Below, one piece after another: positions 52-5,386 of a stretch of 5,386 nucleotides of DNA (positions within the stretch are counted from its first letter, which is position 1; each line of letters begins with the position of its first letter). Position numbers and translations under genes: made by a program. This DNA comes from Escherichia phage phiX174. The notes under the pieces were generated by a model that did not search any database, had not been told where the DNA came from, and saw only the letters and a program-made list of their open reading frames with translations. The DNA is taken from sequence record NC_001422.1; one strand, 5' to 3'.

Positions 52-136
52 TGAGTCGAAAAATTATCTTGATAAAGCAGGAATTACTACTGCTTGTTTA
101 CGAATTAAATCGAAGTGGACTGCTGGCGGAAAATGA
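1..136 (+). CDS. A: Replication initiator protein A / A*, C-terminal segment (continues from window end across the circular junction)
   Basis: The reading frame open from ATG 3981 runs without a stop to 5386 (1406 nt, leaving 2 nt of a split codon). Bases 5385-5386 plus base 1 give CAG, and the frame continues 2..136 to TGA at 134-136. Joined translation ends ...[52 protein letters not shown]. Total 1542 nt = 513 aa, the known gpA length. Confidence 0.93.
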
Positions 137-221
137 GAAAATTCGACCTATCCTTGCGCAGCTCGAGAAGCTCTTACTTTGCGACCTTTCGCCATCAACT
201 AACGATTCTGTCAAAAACTGA
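51..221 (+). CDS. K: Protein K (small nonessential membrane-associated protein, modulates burst size)
   Basis: ATG at 51-53 shares its A with the B stop (TGATG at 49-53); ORF ends TGA 219-221; 56 aa. It overlaps the end of A and the start of C in a third frame. The translation begins [20 protein letters not shown], which I recognise as phiX174 K. It is absent from the ORF track, probably because it is under that track's size cut-off. Confidence 0.85.
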
Positions 222-393
222 CGCGTTGGATGAGGAGAAGTGGCTTAATATGCTTGGCACGTTCGTCAAGGACTGGTTTAGATATGAGTCACATTTTGTT
301 CATGGTAGAGATTCTCTTGTTGACATTTTAAAAGAGCGTGGATTACTATCTGAGTCCGATGCTGTTCAACCACTAATAGGTAAGAAATCATGA
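133..393 (+). CDS. C: Protein C (DNA maturation; switch from RF replication to ssDNA synthesis/packaging)
   Basis: ORF track 115..393; canonical start is the second Met at 133 ([11 protein letters not shown]...), whose ATG overlaps the A stop as ATGA (133-136). GGCGGA lies 3-8 nt upstream as a weak Shine-Dalgarno. Stop TGA 391-393 overlaps the D start. 86 aa. Confidence 0.9.
320..358 (+). promoter_or_regulatory. Promoter pD (inside gene C): -35 TTGACA 320-325, -10 TACTAT 344-349, transcript start near G358
   Basis: Perfect -35 hexamer TTGACA at 320-325, an 18-bp spacer, then TACTAT (4/6 to TATAAT) at 344-349. The sequence GATGC at 358-362 matches my recollection of the 5' end of the D mRNA. 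Spacing and start are consistent with a sigma70 promoter. Confidence 0.6.
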
Positions 394-848
394 GTCAAGT
401 TACTGAACAATCCGTACGTTTCCAGACCGCTTTGGCCTCTATTAAGCTCATTCAGGCTTCTGCCGTTTTGGATTTAACCGAAGATGATTTCGATTTTCTG
501 ACGAGTAACAAAGTTTGGATTGCTACTGACCGCTCTCGTGCTCGTCGCTGCGTTGAGGCTTGCGTTTATGGTACGCTGGACTTTGTGGGATACCCTCGCT
601 TTCCTGCTCCTGTTGAGTTTATTGCTGCCGTCATTGCTTATTATGTTCATCCCGTCAACATTCAAACGGCCTGTCTCATCATGGAAGGCGCTGAATTTAC
701 GGAAAACATTATTAATGGCGTCGAGCGTCCGGTTAAAGCCGCTGAATTGTTCGCGTTTACCTTGCGTGTACGCGCAGGAAACACTGACGTTCTTACTGAC
801 GCAGAAGAAAACGTGCGTCAAAAATTACGTGCGGAAGGAGTGATGTAA
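390..848 (+). CDS. D: External scaffolding protein D
   Basis: ORF track 390..848, 152 aa, [22 protein letters not shown]... recognised as phiX174 gpD. ATG 390-392 overlaps the C stop (ATGA); stop TAA 846-848 overlaps the J start (TAATG). Confidence 0.96.
   Translation: MSQVTEQSVRFQTALASIKLIQASAVLDLTEDDFDFLTSNKVWIATDRSRARRCVEACVYGTLDFVGYPRFPAPVEFIAAVIAYYVHPVNIQTACLIMEGAEFTENIINGVERPVKAAELFAFTLRVRAGNTDVLTDAEENVRQKLRAEGVM
568..843 (+). CDS. E: Lysis protein E (single-gene lysis; MraY inhibitor), embedded in gene D in the +1 frame
   Basis: ORF track 520..843; canonical start is the internal Met at 568 (MVRWTLWDTLAFLLLLSLLLPSLLIMFIPSTFKRP...), 91 aa. It has a hydrophobic N-terminal transmembrane segment and a basic C-terminus. 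GAGG at 555-558 is a Shine-Dalgarno 9 nt upstream. Stop TGA 841-843. Confidence 0.93.
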   Translation: MVRWTLWDTLAFLLLLSLLLPSLLIMFIPSTFKRPVSSWKALNLRKTLLMASSVRLKPLNCSRLPCVYAQETLTFLLTQKKTCVKNYVRKE

Positions 849-2930: not shown

Positions 2931-3917
2931 ATGTTTGGTGCTATTGCTGGCGGTATTGCTTCTGCTCTTGCTGGTGGCGCCATGTCTAAATTGTTTGGAG
3001 GCGGTCAAAAAGCCGCCTCCGGTGGCATTCAAGGTGATGTGCTTGCTACCGATAACAATACTGTAGGCATGGGTGATGCTGGTATTAAATCTGCCATTCA
3101 AGGCTCTAATGTTCCTAACCCTGATGAGGCCGCCCCTAGTTTTGTTTCTGGTGCTATGGCTAAAGCTGGTAAAGGACTTCTTGAAGGTACGTTGCAGGCT
3201 GGCACTTCTGCCGTTTCTGATAAGTTGCTTGATTTGGTTGGACTTGGTGGCAAGTCTGCCGCTGATAAAGGAAAGGATACTCGTGATTATCTTGCTGCTG
3301 CATTTCCTGAGCTTAATGCTTGGGAGCGTGCTGGTGCTGATGCTTCCTCTGCTGGTATGGTTGACGCCGGATTTGAGAATCAAAAAGAGCTTACTAAAAT
3401 GCAACTGGACAATCAGAAAGAGATTGCCGAGATGCAAAATGAGACTCAAAAAGAGATTGCTGGCATTCAGTCGGCGACTTCACGCCAGAATACGAAAGAC
3501 CAGGTATATGCACAAAATGAGATGCTTGCTTATCAACAGAAGGAGTCTACTGCTCGCGTTGCGTCTATTATGGAAAACACCAATCTTTCCAAGCAACAGC
3601 AGGTTTCCGAGATTATGCGCCAAATGCTTACTCAAGCTCAAACGGCTGGTCAGTATTTTACCAATGACCAAATCAAAGAAATGACTCGCAAGGTTAGTGC
3701 TGAGGTTGACTTAGTTCATCAGCAAACGCAGAATCAGCGGTATGGCTCTTCTCATATTGGCGCTACTGCAAAGGATATTTCTAATGTCGTCACTGATGCT
3801 GCTTCTGGTGTGGTTGATATTTTTCATGGTATTGATAAAGCTGTTGCCGATACTTGGAACAATTTCTGGAAAGACGGTAAAGCTGATGGTATTGGCTCTA
3901 ATTTGTCTAGGAAATAA
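2931..3917 (+). CDS. H: Minor spike / DNA pilot protein H
   Basis: ORF track 2931..3917, 328 aa. GAGGTGA at 2920-2926 is a Shine-Dalgarno overlapping the G stop. The N-terminus is Gly/Ala-rich ([25 protein letters not shown]...) and the middle is Gln/Glu-rich, as in phiX174 gpH. Confidence 0.96.
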
Positions 3918-3926
3918 CCGTCAGGA

Positions 3927-3962
3927 TTGACACCCTCCCAATTGTATGTTTTCATGCCTCCA
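3927..3962 (+). promoter_or_regulatory. Promoter pA (H-A intergenic): -35 TTGACA 3927-3932; transcript start near A3962
   Basis: Perfect TTGACA at 3927-3932. AAATCTTGG at 3962-3970 matches my recollection of the 5' end of the A mRNA. The -10 element is not a clean consensus (TATGTT 3945-3950 or TTTTCA 3950-3955), so the exact hexamer assignment is uncertain. Confidence 0.55.
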
Positions 3963-3980
3963 AATCTTGGAGGCTTTTTT
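3956..3980 (+). terminator. Rho-independent terminator TH (after gene H, immediately before gene A)
   Basis: GCCTCCAA (3956-3963) / ATC loop / TTGGAGGC (3967-3974): a perfect 8-bp stem followed by TTTTTT (3975-3980). The GGAGG in the 3' arm doubles as the gene A Shine-Dalgarno. Confidence 0.75.
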
Positions 3981-5386
3981 ATGGTTCGTTCTTATTACCC
4001 TTCTGAATGTCACGCTGATTATTTTGACTTTGAGCGTATCGAGGCTCTTAAACCTGCTATTGAGGCTTGTGGCATTTCTACTCTTTCTCAATCCCCAATG
4101 CTTGGCTTCCATAAGCAGATGGATAACCGCATCAAGCTCTTGGAAGAGATTCTGTCTTTTCGTATGCAGGGCGTTGAGTTCGATAATGGTGATATGTATG
4201 TTGACGGCCATAAGGCTGCTTCTGACGTTCGTGATGAGTTTGTATCTGTTACTGAGAAGTTAATGGATGAATTGGCACAATGCTACAATGTGCTCCCCCA
4301 ACTTGATATTAATAACACTATAGACCACCGCCCCGAAGGGGACGAAAAATGGTTTTTAGAGAACGAGAAGACGGTTACGCAGTTTTGCCGCAAGCTGGCT
4401 GCTGAACGCCCTCTTAAGGATATTCGCGATGAGTATAATTACCCCAAAAAGAAAGGTATTAAGGATGAGTGTTCAAGATTGCTGGAGGCCTCCACTATGA
4501 AATCGCGTAGAGGCTTTGCTATTCAGCGTTTGATGAATGCAATGCGACAGGCTCATGCTGATGGTTGGTTTATCGTTTTTGACACTCTCACGTTGGCTGA
4601 CGACCGATTAGAGGCGTTTTATGATAATCCCAATGCTTTGCGTGACTATTTTCGTGATATTGGTCGTATGGTTCTTGCTGCCGAGGGTCGCAAGGCTAAT
4701 GATTCACACGCCGACTGCTATCAGTATTTTTGTGTGCCTGAGTATGGTACAGCTAATGGCCGTCTTCATTTCCATGCGGTGCACTTTATGCGGACACTTC
4801 CTACAGGTAGCGTTGACCCTAATTTTGGTCGTCGGGTACGCAATCGCCGCCAGTTAAATAGCTTGCAAAATACGTGGCCTTATGGTTACAGTATGCCCAT
4901 CGCAGTTCGCTACACGCAGGACGCTTTTTCACGTTCTGGTTGGTTGTGGCCTGTTGATGCTAAAGGTGAGCCGCTTAAAGCTACCAGTTATATGGCTGTT
5001 GGTTTCTATGTGGCTAAATACGTTAACAAAAAGTCAGATATGGACCTTGCTGCTAAAGGTCTAGGAGCTAAAGAATGGAACAACTCACTAAAAACCAAGC
5101 TGTCGCTACTTCCCAAGAAGCTGTTCAGAATCAGAATGAGCCGCAACTTCGGGATGAAAATGCTCACAATGACAAATCTGTCCACGGAGTGCTTAATCCA
5201 ACTTACCAAGCTGGGTTACGACGCGACGCCGTTCAACCAGATATTGAAGCAGAACGCAAAAAGAGAGATGAGATTGAGGCTGGGAAAAGTTACTGTAGCC
5301 GACGTTTTGGCGGCGCAACCTGTGACGACAAATCTGCTCAAATTTATGCGCGCTTCGATAAAAATGATTGGCGTATCCAACCTGCA
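3981..5386 (+). CDS. A: Replication initiator protein A (HUH rolling-circle endonuclease), N-terminal 468 codons; continues at window positions 1..136
   Basis: ATG 3981 (MVRSYYPSECHADYFDFERIEALKP...) preceded by GGAGG. The frame stays open to the window end. HUH motif HFHAVHF is encoded at 4767-4787. Codons 343 and 347 are both Tyr (TAT 5007-5009, TAC 5019-5021) in VGFYVAKYVNKK, matching the known catalytic Tyr343/Tyr347 of gpA. The supplied ORF track omits this frame, probably because there is no in-window stop. Confidence 0.95.
   Translation, partial: MVRSYYPSECHADYFDFERIEALKPAIEACGISTLSQSPMLGFHKQMDNRIKLLEEILSFRMQGVEFDNGDMYVDGHKAASDVRDEFVSVTEKLMDELAQCYNVLPQLDINNTIDHRPEGDEKWFLENEKTVTQFCRKLAAERPLKDIRDEYNYPKKKGIKDECSRLLEASTMKSRRGFAIQRLMNAMRQAHADGWFIVFDTLTLADDRLEAFYDNPNALRDYFRDIGRMVLAAEGRKANDSHADCYQYFCVPEYGTANGRLHFHAVHFMRTLPTGSVDPNFGRRVRNRRQLNSLQNTWPYGYSMPIAVRYTQDAFSRSGWLWPVDAKGEPLKATSYMAVGFYVAKYVNKKSDMDLAAKGLGAKEWNNSLKTKLSLLPKKLFRIRMSRNFGMKMLTMTNLSTECLIQLTKLGYDATPFNQILKQNAKREMRLRLGKVTVADVLAAQPVTTNLLKFMRASIKMIGVSNL
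4299..4328 (+). other. Viral (+) strand origin of rolling-circle replication; gpA nick site between G4305 and A4306
   Basis: The 30-nt sequence CAACTTGATATTAATAACACTATAGACCAC is present at 4299-4328, inside the gene A coding region. This is the phiX174 origin core recognised and cleaved by gpA. Confidence 0.88.
4497..5386 (+). CDS. A*: Protein A* (in-frame internal translation start within gene A); continues at window positions 1..136
   Basis: ATG at 4497-4499 is in frame with A ((4497-3981) = 516 = 172 codons) and is preceded by GGAGG at 4484-4488 with 8-nt spacing. The product would be 341 aa, matching known A*. Confidence 0.8.
   Translation, partial: MKSRRGFAIQRLMNAMRQAHADGWFIVFDTLTLADDRLEAFYDNPNALRDYFRDIGRMVLAAEGRKANDSHADCYQYFCVPEYGTANGRLHFHAVHFMRTLPTGSVDPNFGRRVRNRRQLNSLQNTWPYGYSMPIAVRYTQDAFSRSGWLWPVDAKGEPLKATSYMAVGFYVAKYVNKKSDMDLAAKGLGAKEWNNSLKTKLSLLPKKLFRIRMSRNFGMKMLTMTNLSTECLIQLTKLGYDATPFNQILKQNAKREMRLRLGKVTVADVLAAQPVTTNLLKFMRASIKMIGVSNL
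4863..4899 (+). promoter_or_regulatory. Promoter pB (inside gene A): -35 TTGCAA 4863-4868, -10 TACAGT 4887-4892, start near A4899
   Basis: TTGCAA (5/6 to TTGACA), an 18-bp spacer, then TACAGT (4/6 to TATAAT). ATCGC at 4899-4903 fits my recollection of the B mRNA 5' end. The assignment is less certain than pD. Confidence 0.5.
5075..5386 (+). CDS. B: Internal scaffolding protein B, N-terminal 104 codons (nested in gene A in a different frame); continues at window positions 1..51
   Basis: ATG 5075-5077 preceded by AGGAG at 5063-5067. Translation MEQLTKNQAVATSQEAVQNQNEPQLRDENAHNDKSVHGVLNPTYQAGLRR... recognised as phiX174 gpB. It is missing from the ORF track, probably because there is no stop within the window. 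Confidence 0.93.
   Translation, partial: MEQLTKNQAVATSQEAVQNQNEPQLRDENAHNDKSVHGVLNPTYQAGLRRDAVQPDIEAERKKRDEIEAGKSYCSRRFGGATCDDKSAQIYARFDKNDWRIQPA

What the first reader, a model, noticed from the sequence alone, without database searches (positions are those of the whole stretch)
3927..3980. H-A intergenic region packs promoter, terminator and ribosome-binding site into about 55 nt
A perfect -35 TTGACA (3927-3932) is followed by an 8-bp GC-rich hairpin plus T6 tract (3956-3980). The likely pA transcript start (about 3962) lies inside the 5' arm of that hairpin, and the 3' arm contains the GGAGG used as the gene A Shine-Dalgarno. Upstream read-through transcripts would therefore form the full terminator hairpin, while pA-initiated transcripts carry only the 3' arm, which could leave the gene A ribosome-binding site more accessible on pA-initiated mRNA than on read-through transcripts.
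Basis: inference. Interest (0 to 1): 0.35.

Follow-up and report, generated by a model that had tools for sequence, protein, structure and literature searches.

The report
phiX174 pA promoter / T_H terminator / gene A RBS
This is the long-known control region between genes H and A of phage phiX174, where one short hairpin acts as terminator for incoming transcripts and mask for the gene A ribosome site, while the gene's own promoter starts transcription inside that hairpin and so escapes both; the anatomy is textbook, but I show the design is conserved, co-varies and is even duplicated in related phages.

Summary
The window is phiX174 in Sanger numbering.
- -35 TTGACA at 3927-3932
- TRTG extension TATG at 3945-3948
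- weak -10 TTTCAT at 3950-3955
- 8-bp hairpin 3956-3963/3967-3974 with loop ATC
- T6 at 3975-3980
- SD GGAGG at 3969-3973 in the 3' arm
- gene A ATG at 3981

The overlap of pA, T_H, the transcript start and the gene A RBS is published (Godson 1978 via Logel & Jaschke 2020; Wei et al. 2026), so it is already known.

Opening the SD costs about 2-3 kcal/mol on RNA starting at 3962, against about 6.5-13 on read-through RNA. Gene A has the most occluded RBS of all 11 phiX174 starts on long transcripts and one of the most open on pA RNA.

Across G4-like, alpha3-like and one unnamed clade, the 5' arm always begins 0-1 nt after the -10. The anti-SD arm co-varies with the SD (GCCTCC/GGAGGC versus GCCCTC/GAGGGC). 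Alpha3-like phages carry two copies, one of them in front of a conserved, mostly unannotated 122-codon ORF.

Differential translation has not been measured. Interest is low to moderate.

The parts
3915..3917 (+). Gene H stop codon (TAA); the H-A intergenic gap is 3918-3980 (63 nt)
   Evidence: ORF 2931..3917; relatives' records annotate H as 2931..3917
3927..3932 (+). pA -35 hexamer TTGACA (6/6 consensus)
   Evidence: 15 detrimental substitutions map here in published saturation mutagenesis; invariant in phiX-like isolates and TTGACw in G4-like and alpha3-like phages
3945..3948 (+). TRTG (extended -10) motif TATG; TG at 3947-3948 lies one base upstream of the -10
   Evidence: 9 of 10 substitutions detrimental, only A3946G (still TRTG) tolerated; TATG/TGTG also present in phiX-like isolates, L023 and the alpha3-like H-proximal copy
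3950..3955 (+). pA -10 hexamer TTTCAT (4/6), 17-nt spacer from the -35
   Evidence: 11 of 18 substitutions detrimental; BPROM prediction bprom-16
3956..3963 (+). 5' arm of the T_H hairpin, GCCTCCAA. It is the anti-SD arm and starts immediately after the -10, so it also forms the pA discriminator and start region
   Evidence: phasing of 0-1 nt after the -10 conserved in all clades; co-varies with the SD arm; only 13% of its substitutions are detrimental
3962..3962 (+). Probable pA transcription start (A), the 7th base after the -10 and 2 nt before the end of the 5' arm
   Evidence: Published annotation pA = 3927..3962; TSS stated to lie in the stem-loop; geometry. Not re-mapped here. My recollection that the in vitro A mRNA begins pppAAAUCUUGG (Sanger 1977) could not be checked in the held library
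3964..3966 (+). Hairpin loop ATC (ACT in several wild isolates); site of recurrent insertions in laboratory-evolved lines
3967..3974 (+). 3' arm of the T_H hairpin, TTGGAGGC
   Evidence: 63% of substitutions detrimental
3969..3973 (+). Gene A Shine-Dalgarno GGAGG, 7 nt before the ATG, inside the 3' arm
   Evidence: one of only four GGAGG on the + strand; the only one preceded by CCTCC within 3-12 nt
3975..3980 (+). T6 tract: terminator U-tract and, at the same time, the SD-to-ATG spacer
3981..3983 (+). Gene A start codon ATG (gene A runs 3981..5386 and on to 136)
   Evidence: annotations
3983..4061 (+). Context only: published predicted Rho-utilisation site RUT-1 at the 5' end of gene A. It could act on untranslated read-through RNA (my inference)
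   Evidence: [quoted passage not shown] Prediction only

Best explanation
The region is the phiX174 pA / T_H / gene-A-RBS composite. It works as a self-insulating expression switch built from a single hairpin.

(1) RNA polymerase arriving from pB/pD through gene H transcribes both arms. The 8-bp hairpin plus U6 forms, and most complexes terminate. This step is shown in the literature.

(2) On the transcripts that do read through, the same hairpin holds the gene A Shine-Dalgarno in its 3' arm, so ribosomes initiate poorly. This step is inferred from energies. Such untranslated RNA may also be exposed to Rho at the predicted rut site just inside gene A, which is speculative.

(3) The weak extended -10 promoter pA ends exactly where the 5' arm begins, so its transcripts start at about 3962 and lack the anti-SD arm. 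They cannot form the terminator, so pA does not terminate itself. Their SD is open, so A is translated. The geometry is shown; the consequence is inferred.

The net effect is that production of protein A is set by pA alone and is decoupled from the heavy late-gene transcription that runs into it. Protein A is needed in small amounts and is reported harmful in excess. The unstructured 5' end of the pA RNA may also contribute to the reported instability of pA transcripts; this is my inference.
For: Anatomy.

Published function:
- pA elements are fitness-critical, and 43% of promoter substitutions are detrimental although read-through RNA also covers gene A.
- T_H blocks about 70% of current, a net 0.29-fold change, or about 90%.
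- The TSS and the RBS lie inside the stem-loop; pA is annotated 3927..3962.
- A/A* are needed at low level, and overexpression is deleterious.
- pA transcripts are low, largely through instability.

Energetics:
- The hairpin is -12.8 kcal/mol for 3950-3985, against -0.2 for 3962-3985.
- SD opening cost is 1.9-3.4 kcal/mol on pA-initiated RNA and 6.5-10.6 on read-through RNA.

Internal control: on long RNA the gene A SD window costs 10.7 kcal/mol to open, the highest of 11 starts. F, G and H must be translated from terminator read-through and cost 3.5-3.8. On pA RNA gene A drops to 2.7.

Comparative evidence:
- The same layout occurs in phiX-like, G4-like, alpha3-like phages and clade L023, with the 5' arm starting 0-1 nt after the -10.
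- The same energy contrast holds in each: 1.7-5.0 against 8.6-15.9 kcal/mol.
- In the stem, 89% of cells are paired, 5 of 10 pairs have changes on both sides, and 0/500 shuffles reach the covariation score. Slid controls give 34-56% paired.
- U.G pairs in the stems place the structure on the + sense strand.
- An alpha3-like genome (L033) lost the -10 and the 5' arm together in one deletion.
- Laboratory-evolved lines mutate the loop and +1 region repeatedly but keep the hairpin at -9.3 to -12.4 kcal/mol.
Against: - No measurement here or in the held literature separates translation of A from pA-initiated and read-through RNA. RNA-seq could not even separate pA initiation from T_H termination.
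- Substitutions in the 5' arm are mostly tolerated, with 13% detrimental. Neither termination nor masking is therefore strongly required in that laboratory assay. This is a weak test, because single substitutions still leave the SD costing 4.8-10.0 kcal/mol to open, median 7.3.
- The covariation rests on few independent events, essentially clade-level switches, and related sequences can beat shuffles without any structure.
- The equilibrium folding used here ignores co-transcriptional kinetics and ribosome standby binding.
- The exact +1 was not re-mapped here, and the primary mapping papers are not in the held library.
Confidence: 0.75

Rival explanations
1. The element is only compression. 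The hairpin is simply the T_H terminator and a 3'-end stabiliser for transcripts ending after H. The SD sits in its 3' arm because 63 nt must hold three signals. Under this reading, masking of the RBS on read-through RNA has no biological weight: either read-through RNA is too rare to matter, or ribosomes open the hairpin anyway.
For: Overlap of terminators with RBSs or the (-) origin is general in phiX174 non-coding regions. The 5' arm tolerates most single substitutions. Terminator hairpins are known mRNA stabilisers in this phage. T_H already removes 70-90% of incoming transcription.
Against: F, G and H also follow terminators, yet their SDs are not locked in stable stems: 3.5-3.8 kcal/mol against 10.7 for A. 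The 0-1 nt phasing between the -10 and the 5' arm is conserved in four clades whose flanking sequence cannot be aligned. The anti-SD arm tracks SD changes. pA is fitness-critical even though read-through RNA covers gene A.
Confidence: 0.17
2. The conserved 5' arm is constrained as promoter DNA rather than by pairing. It would act as a G+C-rich discriminator and initial transcribed sequence that tunes pA open-complex lifetime or start-site choice, and its complementarity to the SD would be a side effect.
For: The arm occupies exactly the discriminator and +1 positions. Laboratory-evolved lines change the +1/loop region together with a -10 change, T3951C. The 7th base after the -10 is A in 8 of 10 modules.
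Against: The arm changes from GCCTCC to GCCCTC/GCCTTC/GCTCTC precisely where the SD arm changes from GGAGGC to GAGGGC, keeping pairs; 18 cells show changes on both sides. Inner stem pairs beyond the likely start also compensate, for example AU to UA and AU to GC. Single substitutions there are mostly neutral, whereas -35, -10 and TRTG substitutions are not.
Confidence: 0.05
3. The hairpin acts at the level of single-stranded viral DNA, for example in packaging, complementary-strand synthesis or protein A action in cis, and its RNA roles are secondary.
For: The + strand DNA also folds into the hairpin, at -8.4 kcal/mol with z = -4.8. Another phiX174 terminator hairpin, T_F, doubles as the PriA site of the (-) origin. 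Covariation cannot distinguish + strand DNA from RNA.
Against: The stem is always followed by a T-run and an ATG and always contains an SD, which has meaning only in RNA. U.G (G.T) pairs are tolerated. No replication or packaging signal is annotated here in the literature read.
Confidence: 0.03

Closest known systems
The published phiX174 pA-T_H element (Sanger 1977; Godson et al. 1978; Logel & Jaschke 2020, doi 10.1101/2020.03.05.979765; Wei, Li & Lehner 2026, doi 10.64898/2026.07.25.740675)
   Same: It is the same object. The promoter hexamers, TRTG extension, terminator stem-loop, TSS inside the stem-loop and RBS in the 3' stem are all described at these coordinates.
   Different: The papers I could read describe the overlap and the measurement problem it causes. 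They do not state or test that read-through RNA has a masked RBS while pA RNA does not. They also give no cross-genus covariation, phasing or duplication analysis. Older primary papers that may say more are not in the held library.
[quoted passage not shown]
   Same: The logic is the same. Transcripts entering from outside contain a segment upstream of the element's own start that pairs with the RBS, and the element's own transcripts lack it. IS200 has one stem-loop that terminates impinging transcripts and another that occludes the RBS. Sequestered translation signals in IS10 and IS3 are cited.
   Different: In phiX174 a single hairpin does both jobs, termination and RBS masking. The 'outside' transcription is the phage's own late operon on a circular genome. 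There is no homology, and the IS10 details rest on my own knowledge plus the citations.
Quantitative RBS-hairpin control of translation (de Smit & van Duin 1990, MS2 coat gene; cited)
   Same: An SD inside a stable local hairpin lowers initiation in proportion to the hairpin's stability. A 6-9 kcal/mol difference, as computed here, is far beyond the range where that effect saturates (established knowledge).
   Different: That system varies stability by mutation. Here the two stability states are produced by two transcript 5' ends from one DNA sequence.
Riboswitch expression platforms in which one helix is both intrinsic terminator and SD sequestrator
   Same: One stem followed by a U-tract contains the SD, so the folded state blocks both transcription and translation (general knowledge; review hits).
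   Different: There is no ligand or aptamer. The switch is set by which promoter made the RNA, not by a metabolite. No Rfam family matches.

Membership tests
Sigma-70 promoter, extended -10 (TRTGn) class | -35 hexamer close to TTGACA | tested here: met
   TTGACA 6/6 at 3927-3932
Sigma-70 promoter, extended -10 (TRTGn) class | Spacer of 17 +/- 1 bp between the hexamers | tested here: met
   17 nt, 3933-3949; relatives have 17-18 nt, and one has 15
Sigma-70 promoter, extended -10 (TRTGn) class | -10 hexamer close to TATAAT, including A at position 2 and T at position 6 | tested here: inconclusive
   TTTCAT matches 4/6 and has T6 but lacks A2, so the consensus scan did not list it. Relatives have better -10s: TAATAT, TATCAT, TATATT
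Sigma-70 promoter, extended -10 (TRTGn) class | TG one base upstream of the -10 (TRTGn) | tested here: met
   TATG at 3945-3948, then T3949, then TTTCAT; 9 of 10 substitutions detrimental in published mutagenesis
Sigma-70 promoter, extended -10 (TRTGn) class | Demonstrated initiation with a mapped start | not testable with these tools
   Literature only: pA is among the three canonical promoters, the TSS lies in the stem-loop, and pA is annotated 3927..3962. Primary mapping papers are not held
Rho-independent (intrinsic) terminator | G+C-rich stem with a short loop | tested here: met
   8 perfect pairs, 5 G-C, loop of 3; best site in the genome; -12.8 kcal/mol, z = -3.0
Rho-independent (intrinsic) terminator | U-tract immediately after the stem | tested here: met
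   T6 at 3975-3980, directly after C3974; such a site arises by chance in 10/1000 genome shuffles
Rho-independent (intrinsic) terminator | Measured termination in vivo | not testable with these tools
   Literature: about 70% block, net 0.29-fold by RNA-seq; about 90% cited; 0.7-fold by qPCR
Transcript-origin-dependent RBS masking (IS10/IS200-type protection from impinging transcription) | SD lies inside a stable stem | tested here: met
   GGAGG 3969-3973 lies within the 3' arm 3967-3974
Transcript-origin-dependent RBS masking (IS10/IS200-type protection from impinging transcription) | The complementary arm lies upstream of the gene's own transcription start | tested here: met
   The 5' arm starts directly after the -10, and the 7th base after the -10 is A3962, in agreement with the published annotation. 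The phasing is conserved in all clades. The start itself was not mapped here
Transcript-origin-dependent RBS masking (IS10/IS200-type protection from impinging transcription) | Large predicted difference in RBS accessibility between the two transcript classes | tested here: met
   1.9-3.4 against 6.5-10.6 kcal/mol; 2.7 against 10.7 kcal/mol, with gene A the extreme of 11 starts; the same in relatives
Transcript-origin-dependent RBS masking (IS10/IS200-type protection from impinging transcription) | Evolutionary selection for the pairing | tested here: met
   5 of 10 pairs changed on both sides, 89% paired, 0/500 shuffles reach the score, slid controls 34-56%. Caveat: few independent events. 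The alpha3-like H-proximal copies alone show no double changes
Transcript-origin-dependent RBS masking (IS10/IS200-type protection from impinging transcription) | Measured difference in translation between own-promoter and read-through RNA | not testable with these tools
   No such measurement was found in the held literature
Any curated Rfam RNA family | Covariance-model match | tested here: not met
   0 matches at E <= 1 over the whole window, both strands

The most novel reading that the evidence does not exclude
The element may be more than a phiX174 curiosity. It could be a portable 'split-hairpin' expression cassette of the Bullavirinae, in which a promoter's +1 bisects a combined terminator and anti-SD hairpin. 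Any gene placed behind it would then be transcribed and translated only from its own promoter and would be blind to upstream read-through. Evolution has kept the phasing and pairing across at least four clades. In alpha3-like phages it has duplicated the design, so that one copy heads a conserved, largely unannotated three-ORF block in the 'intergenic' H-A spacer and the second copy heads gene A.
Probability: 0.45. Interest if true: 0.5.

Novelty: already known. Interest (0 to 1): 0.3.

Why it matters
For phiX174 itself this changes little, because the anatomy has been in the literature since the genome was first sequenced.

The value lies in the consequence. If read-through RNA is translationally silent for gene A, then protein A output depends on pA alone. 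That would explain three published observations:
- pA is fitness-critical although gene A is also covered by read-through RNA.
- RNA-level models cannot identify pA and T_H strengths separately.
- Refactored or 'decompressed' phiX174 genomes that separate these signals could mis-express A/A*.

The conserved split-hairpin design is also a compact part of about 55 nt for synthetic biology. It insulates a gene from upstream transcription at both the RNA-synthesis and translation levels.

The side observation of conserved unannotated ORFs behind a second copy in alpha3-like phages bears on claims that microvirus gene annotation is complete.

Tried and rejected
- Per-nucleotide fitness values for 3918-3980 from Wei et al. 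2026: the stored supplementary table is truncated before this region, and my coordinate search hit only atom numbers in structure files. This was a dead end and cost two supplement look-ups.
- Primary transcript-mapping and stability papers (Hayashi 1981, PMC171140 and PMC171030) and promoter compilations (PMC340638, PMC325881): not held.
- GenBank J02482 and NC_001422, for annotated mRNA starts: not in the phage collection.
- Text search for the 5' sequence AAAUCUUGG of the A mRNA: only unrelated primer hits.
- Rfam at permissive E-value: nothing.
- The consensus promoter scan did not list pA. I judged this a limitation of its A2 rule, not evidence against the promoter.
- Most distant gene-A relatives: in L022 and L037 the gene A start lies outside the held stretch, and L038 and L039 show no such module. 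I therefore do not claim the design beyond the Bullavirinae-like clades sampled.
- Covariation within the alpha3-like H-proximal copies alone: well paired (94%) but no double changes, so uninformative on its own.
- I considered reading TATGAT (3945-3950 in wild isolates) as the -10. I rejected it because the spacer would be only 12 nt.
- I considered the laboratory-evolved insertions as evidence that the hairpin is selected against. I rejected this because they change its stability by at most about 2.3 kcal/mol.

Full report
IDENTITY AND OBSERVATION

The 5386-base window is bacteriophage phiX174 in standard Sanger numbering. Bases 3700-4300 are 100% identical to phiX174 records at the same coordinates. 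The ORF list reproduces the known genes, including H at 2931..3917.

- H stop TAA at 3915-3917
- TTGACA at 3927-3932
- GCCTCCAA at 3956-3963, loop ATC at 3964-3966, TTGGAGGC at 3967-3974
- T6 at 3975-3980, and the gene A ATG at 3981
- GGAGG at 3969-3973, inside the 3' arm

The hexamer TTGACA alone is not unusual in this genome: 6 copies against 3.55 expected. The hairpin is. It is the best terminator-like site found on either strand. It folds at -12.8 kcal/mol, z = -3.0. A perfect 8-bp stem followed by at least 6 T in 8 nt appears anywhere in the genome in 10 of 1000 dinucleotide shuffles, and CCTCC within 3-12 nt upstream of GGAGG in 18 of 1000.

WHAT IS ALREADY PUBLISHED

[quoted passage not shown] Their Fig. 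S2 legend, adapted from Godson et al. [quoted passage not shown] By RNA-seq the combined element gives a net 0.29-fold change in transcription. T_H is the strongest of the four terminators, blocking about 70%. A modelling paper cites about 90% and annotates pA as 3927..3962.

Wei, Li & Lehner (bioRxiv 10.64898/2026.07.25.740675) mutated every base. The -35 (3927-3932), the degenerate -10 TTTCAT (3950-3955) and a TRTG extension TATG (3945-3948) are fitness-critical. In the T_H hairpin, 63% of substitutions in the 3' stem, which holds the RBS, are detrimental, against 13% in the 5' stem.

Neither is met. The anatomy is therefore already known. My recollection that Sanger et al. 1977 reported the in vitro A mRNA as starting pppAAAUCUUGG, which would begin at 3962, could not be checked: the old primary papers are not in the held library.

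TESTING THE FUNCTIONAL INFERENCE

I computed the free energy needed to make GGAGG single-stranded in the whole ensemble:
- 1.9-3.4 kcal/mol for 5' ends at 3960-3963
- 6.5-10.6 kcal/mol for 5' ends at 3918, 3850 or 3750
- 11.4-13 kcal/mol for RNA beginning exactly at the stem

The short fragments behave the same way: -12.8 kcal/mol for 3950-3985, against -0.2 kcal/mol for 3962-3985, no better than shuffles.

An internal control is informative. Genes F, G and H also sit just downstream of terminators but have no promoter of their own, so they must be translated from read-through RNA. On long transcripts their SD windows cost 3.5-3.8 kcal/mol to open. Gene A's costs 10.7, the highest of all 11 phiX174 starts; next is the notoriously poorly translated lysis gene E at 8.4. 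On pA-initiated RNA gene A falls to 2.7.

By the established relation between RBS-hairpin stability and initiation (de Smit & van Duin 1990, cited), a 6-9 kcal/mol difference implies that read-through RNA contributes very little protein A. This is an inference. No measurement of it was found.

COMPARATIVE EVIDENCE

I fetched eight phiX-like isolates, G4-like genomes, alpha3-like genomes and 23 viral contigs encoding gene A relatives.

In phiX-like isolates the spacer and loop vary, while both arms, the T6 and the hexamers are fixed. In G4-like phages the intergenic sequence is otherwise unalignable, but the layout is the same: TTGACw, 15-18 nt, TAATAT/TAACAT/TATCAT, then directly GCCTCC, an 8-nt loop, GGAGGC, a T-run and ATG. 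An unnamed clade (L023, 57% gene A identity) has TAGACA, 17 nt ending in TGTG-A, TTGAAT, one base, then GCCTCCA-ATTA-TGGAGGC, T6 and ATG.

Alpha3-like phages have TTGACA, 18 nt and TATATT, followed by GCCCTCATAG-loop-CTACGAGGGC, T5 and the gene A ATG. Variants are GCCTTCAAAG/CTTTGAGGGC, GCTCTCATAG/CTATGAGGGC and GCCCTCGCAG.

In every clade the 5' arm begins 0-1 nt after the -10 hexamer. A start 6-8 nt downstream, which is an A in 8 of 10 modules, therefore always excludes the G+C-rich anti-SD segment. The predicted accessibility contrast holds everywhere: 1.7-5.0 against 8.6-15.9 kcal/mol.

On an alignment of 14 distinct modules:
- 89% of cells are paired.
- 5 of 10 pairs show changes on both sides (18 cells).
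- No shuffle of 500 reaches the observed covariation score.
- Sliding the partner by 1-3 columns drops pairing to 34-56%.

In particular, stem pairs 4 and 5 switch from U-A/C-G with SD GGAGG to C-G/U-A with SD GAGGG. The anti-SD arm follows the SD. The caveat is that these are few independent events, and relatedness inflates shuffle tests. U.G pairs in the stems place the structure on the + sense strand.

One alpha3-like genome (L033, 6039 nt) has a deletion that removes the -10 and the 5' arm together and leaves the SD arm. The model predicts that co-loss is tolerable: without a private promoter, the mask must also go.

LABORATORY EVOLUTION

Deposited evolved phiX174 genomes carry changes inside this element:
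- A TG insertion (TTG[TG]GAGG) occurs in 11 records from two studies (AF176033 and the HM7537xx series).
- An A insertion in the loop/+1 run, together with T3951C in the -10, occurs in 15 records of the HM7536xx series. Two further records match the 42-nt query with one mismatch (HM753683 and, from another study, AF299308); which position differs was not checked.
- C3961T, which turns a C-G pair into U.G, occurs in EF380026.

None of these destroys the hairpin: -10.9, -12.4 and -9.3 kcal/mol, against -11.6 for the wild type computed the same way. The element is thus a recurrent target for tuning, not for loss.

THE MAIN COUNTER-EVIDENCE

Tolerance of the 5' arm to single substitutions argues that neither termination nor masking is strongly needed in that assay. 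But each of the 24 possible single substitutions still leaves the SD costing 4.8-10.0 kcal/mol to open on read-through RNA, median 7.3. This is well above the pA-RNA value, so single substitutions are a weak test.

Conversely, 43% of promoter substitutions are detrimental although read-through RNA also covers gene A. That is what one expects if only pA RNA is a good template for A.

MECHANISM, WITH SHOWN AND INFERRED STEPS MARKED

Shown, from sequence or the literature:
- the promoter elements
- the hairpin and U-tract
- substantial termination at T_H
- the start site and the RBS lying inside the stem-loop

Inferred from computation and comparison:
- pA transcripts cannot form the hairpin and so escape T_H.
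- Their SD is open.
- Read-through RNA has a masked SD.
- Selection maintains both the pairing and the phasing.

Speculative:
- Untranslated read-through RNA is cleared by Rho at the predicted rut site that begins at 3983.
- The unstructured 5' end of pA RNA contributes to its reported instability.

The purpose fits the biology: A/A* are needed in small amounts and are reported harmful in excess.

RIVAL EXPLANATIONS

- Compression only, with masking irrelevant. Disfavoured by the F/G/H control, the conserved phasing and the covariation.
- The 5' arm is constrained as promoter discriminator DNA. Disfavoured by the compensatory changes and its mutational tolerance.
- A role as a hairpin in single-stranded viral DNA. 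The DNA does fold, at -8.4 kcal/mol. But the invariable SD, T-run and ATG context has meaning only in RNA.

COMPARISON WITH KNOWN SYSTEMS

The object is the published pA-T_H element. Functionally it works like the protection of insertion sequences against impinging transcription. IS200 has one stem-loop that terminates incoming transcripts and another that occludes the RBS. IS10 is cited for sequestered translation signals and for 'protection at two levels from external promoters'. The difference is that phiX174 uses one hairpin for both levels.

It also resembles riboswitch expression platforms whose terminator helix contains the SD, but it has no ligand. The 'input' is which promoter made the RNA. 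No Rfam family matches.

VERDICT

- Novelty is 'already known' for the element itself. The cross-genus phasing, covariation and duplication, and the RBS-outlier analysis, are modest additions.
- Interest is 0.3.

SIDE FINDING

In alpha3-like phages the H-A 'intergenic' spacer of about 760 nt opens with a second copy of the module, directly after the H stop: TTGACw, TATG-A, a 13-bp hairpin whose 3' arm holds AGGAG, a T-run and ATG.

That ATG starts a 122-codon ORF with these properties:
- It is intact in 13 of 15 loci examined.
- Its variable columns by codon position are 44/31/92.
- It is found in all 27 alpha3-like records by tblastn, but carries a gene-like annotation in only 2.
- It has no Pfam or PHROG match.
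- It is followed by compact 29- and 58-codon ORFs.

An old alpha3 record marks the corresponding SD as a ribosome-binding site without calling a gene.

Noticed in passing
L014 (phage NC28) 1-760; ORFs 65..433, 437..526, 523..699. Same region in L015, L016, L024-L036: The ~760-nt H-A 'intergenic' spacer of alpha3-like phages holds a conserved 122-codon ORF. It is intact in 13/15 loci, with variable columns by codon position 44/31/92. It is present in all 27 alpha3-like records but annotated as a gene-like feature in 2, and has no Pfam or PHROG hit. Tightly packed 29-aa (hydrophobic) and 58-aa ORFs follow it. It starts at the ATG behind a second copy of the promoter/hairpin/SD module. The ORFs are probably real, mostly unannotated genes.
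   Followed up: partly
L014-L016, L024-L036: about 4-75 nt after the H stop, and about 70 nt before gene A: Alpha3-like phages carry the split-hairpin module twice, with unrelated stem sequences: GACTCTTGCTTCA.../...TGAAGTAGGAGTC after H, and GCCCTCATAG/CTACGAGGGC before A. This suggests the design was re-created or duplicated when the spacer genes were acquired.
   Followed up: partly
L033 (6039-nt alpha3-like contig, same length as phage NC35), about 70 nt before gene A: A deletion of roughly 29 nt removes the spacer, the -10 and the 5' arm of the gene-A-proximal module, and keeps the SD arm, T-run and ATG (TTGACAGATAGTTTTACTACGAGGACTTTTTCGTATG). It is a natural variant in which the promoter and the anti-SD mask were lost together.
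   Followed up: no
window 3951, 3961, 3964-3969 (records AF176033, HM753707-18, HM753680-702, AF299308, EF380026): Laboratory-evolved phiX174 lines repeatedly acquire small changes inside the element. A TG insertion before GGAGG is in 11 records from two studies. An A insertion in the loop/+1 run plus -10 T3951C is in 15 records of one series. Two further records (HM753683, AF299308) match that 42-nt query with one unidentified mismatch. A C3961T change converts C-G to U.G. This looks like parallel evolution tuning pA or the 5' UTR without destroying the hairpin.
   Followed up: partly
window 4484-4493: The SD of the internal start A* (GGAGG 4484-4488) directly abuts its own complement (CCTCC 4489-4493), giving the palindrome GGAGGCCTCC 3 nt before the ATG at 4497. 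On long RNA this RBS costs 6.1 kcal/mol to open. The possible pairing partners of this segment were not examined.
   Followed up: no
window 3983-4061: [quoted passage not shown] If read-through RNA is untranslated, Rho could act there. This link is my inference and is untested.
   Followed up: no
Public records seen: A 24,953-nt record named Mycolicibacterium phage J1 (MZ417522.1) contains a stretch 100% identical to phiX174 bases 3700-4300, most likely spike-in contamination or a chimeric assembly. Salmonella phage SP14 (PP501405.1), a 5.5-kb microvirus, is filed under Caudoviricetes.
   Followed up: no
L009-L013, L018-L020, record positions about 29-34: In G4-like phages the ATG formed by the -10 / 5'-arm junction (..ATATGCCTCC.. 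or ..TCATGCCTCC..) is in frame with gene A, 9-10 codons upstream of the annotated start. It lies upstream of the likely transcript start and has no SD, so it is probably unused. It does explain inconsistent gene A start calls.
   Followed up: no
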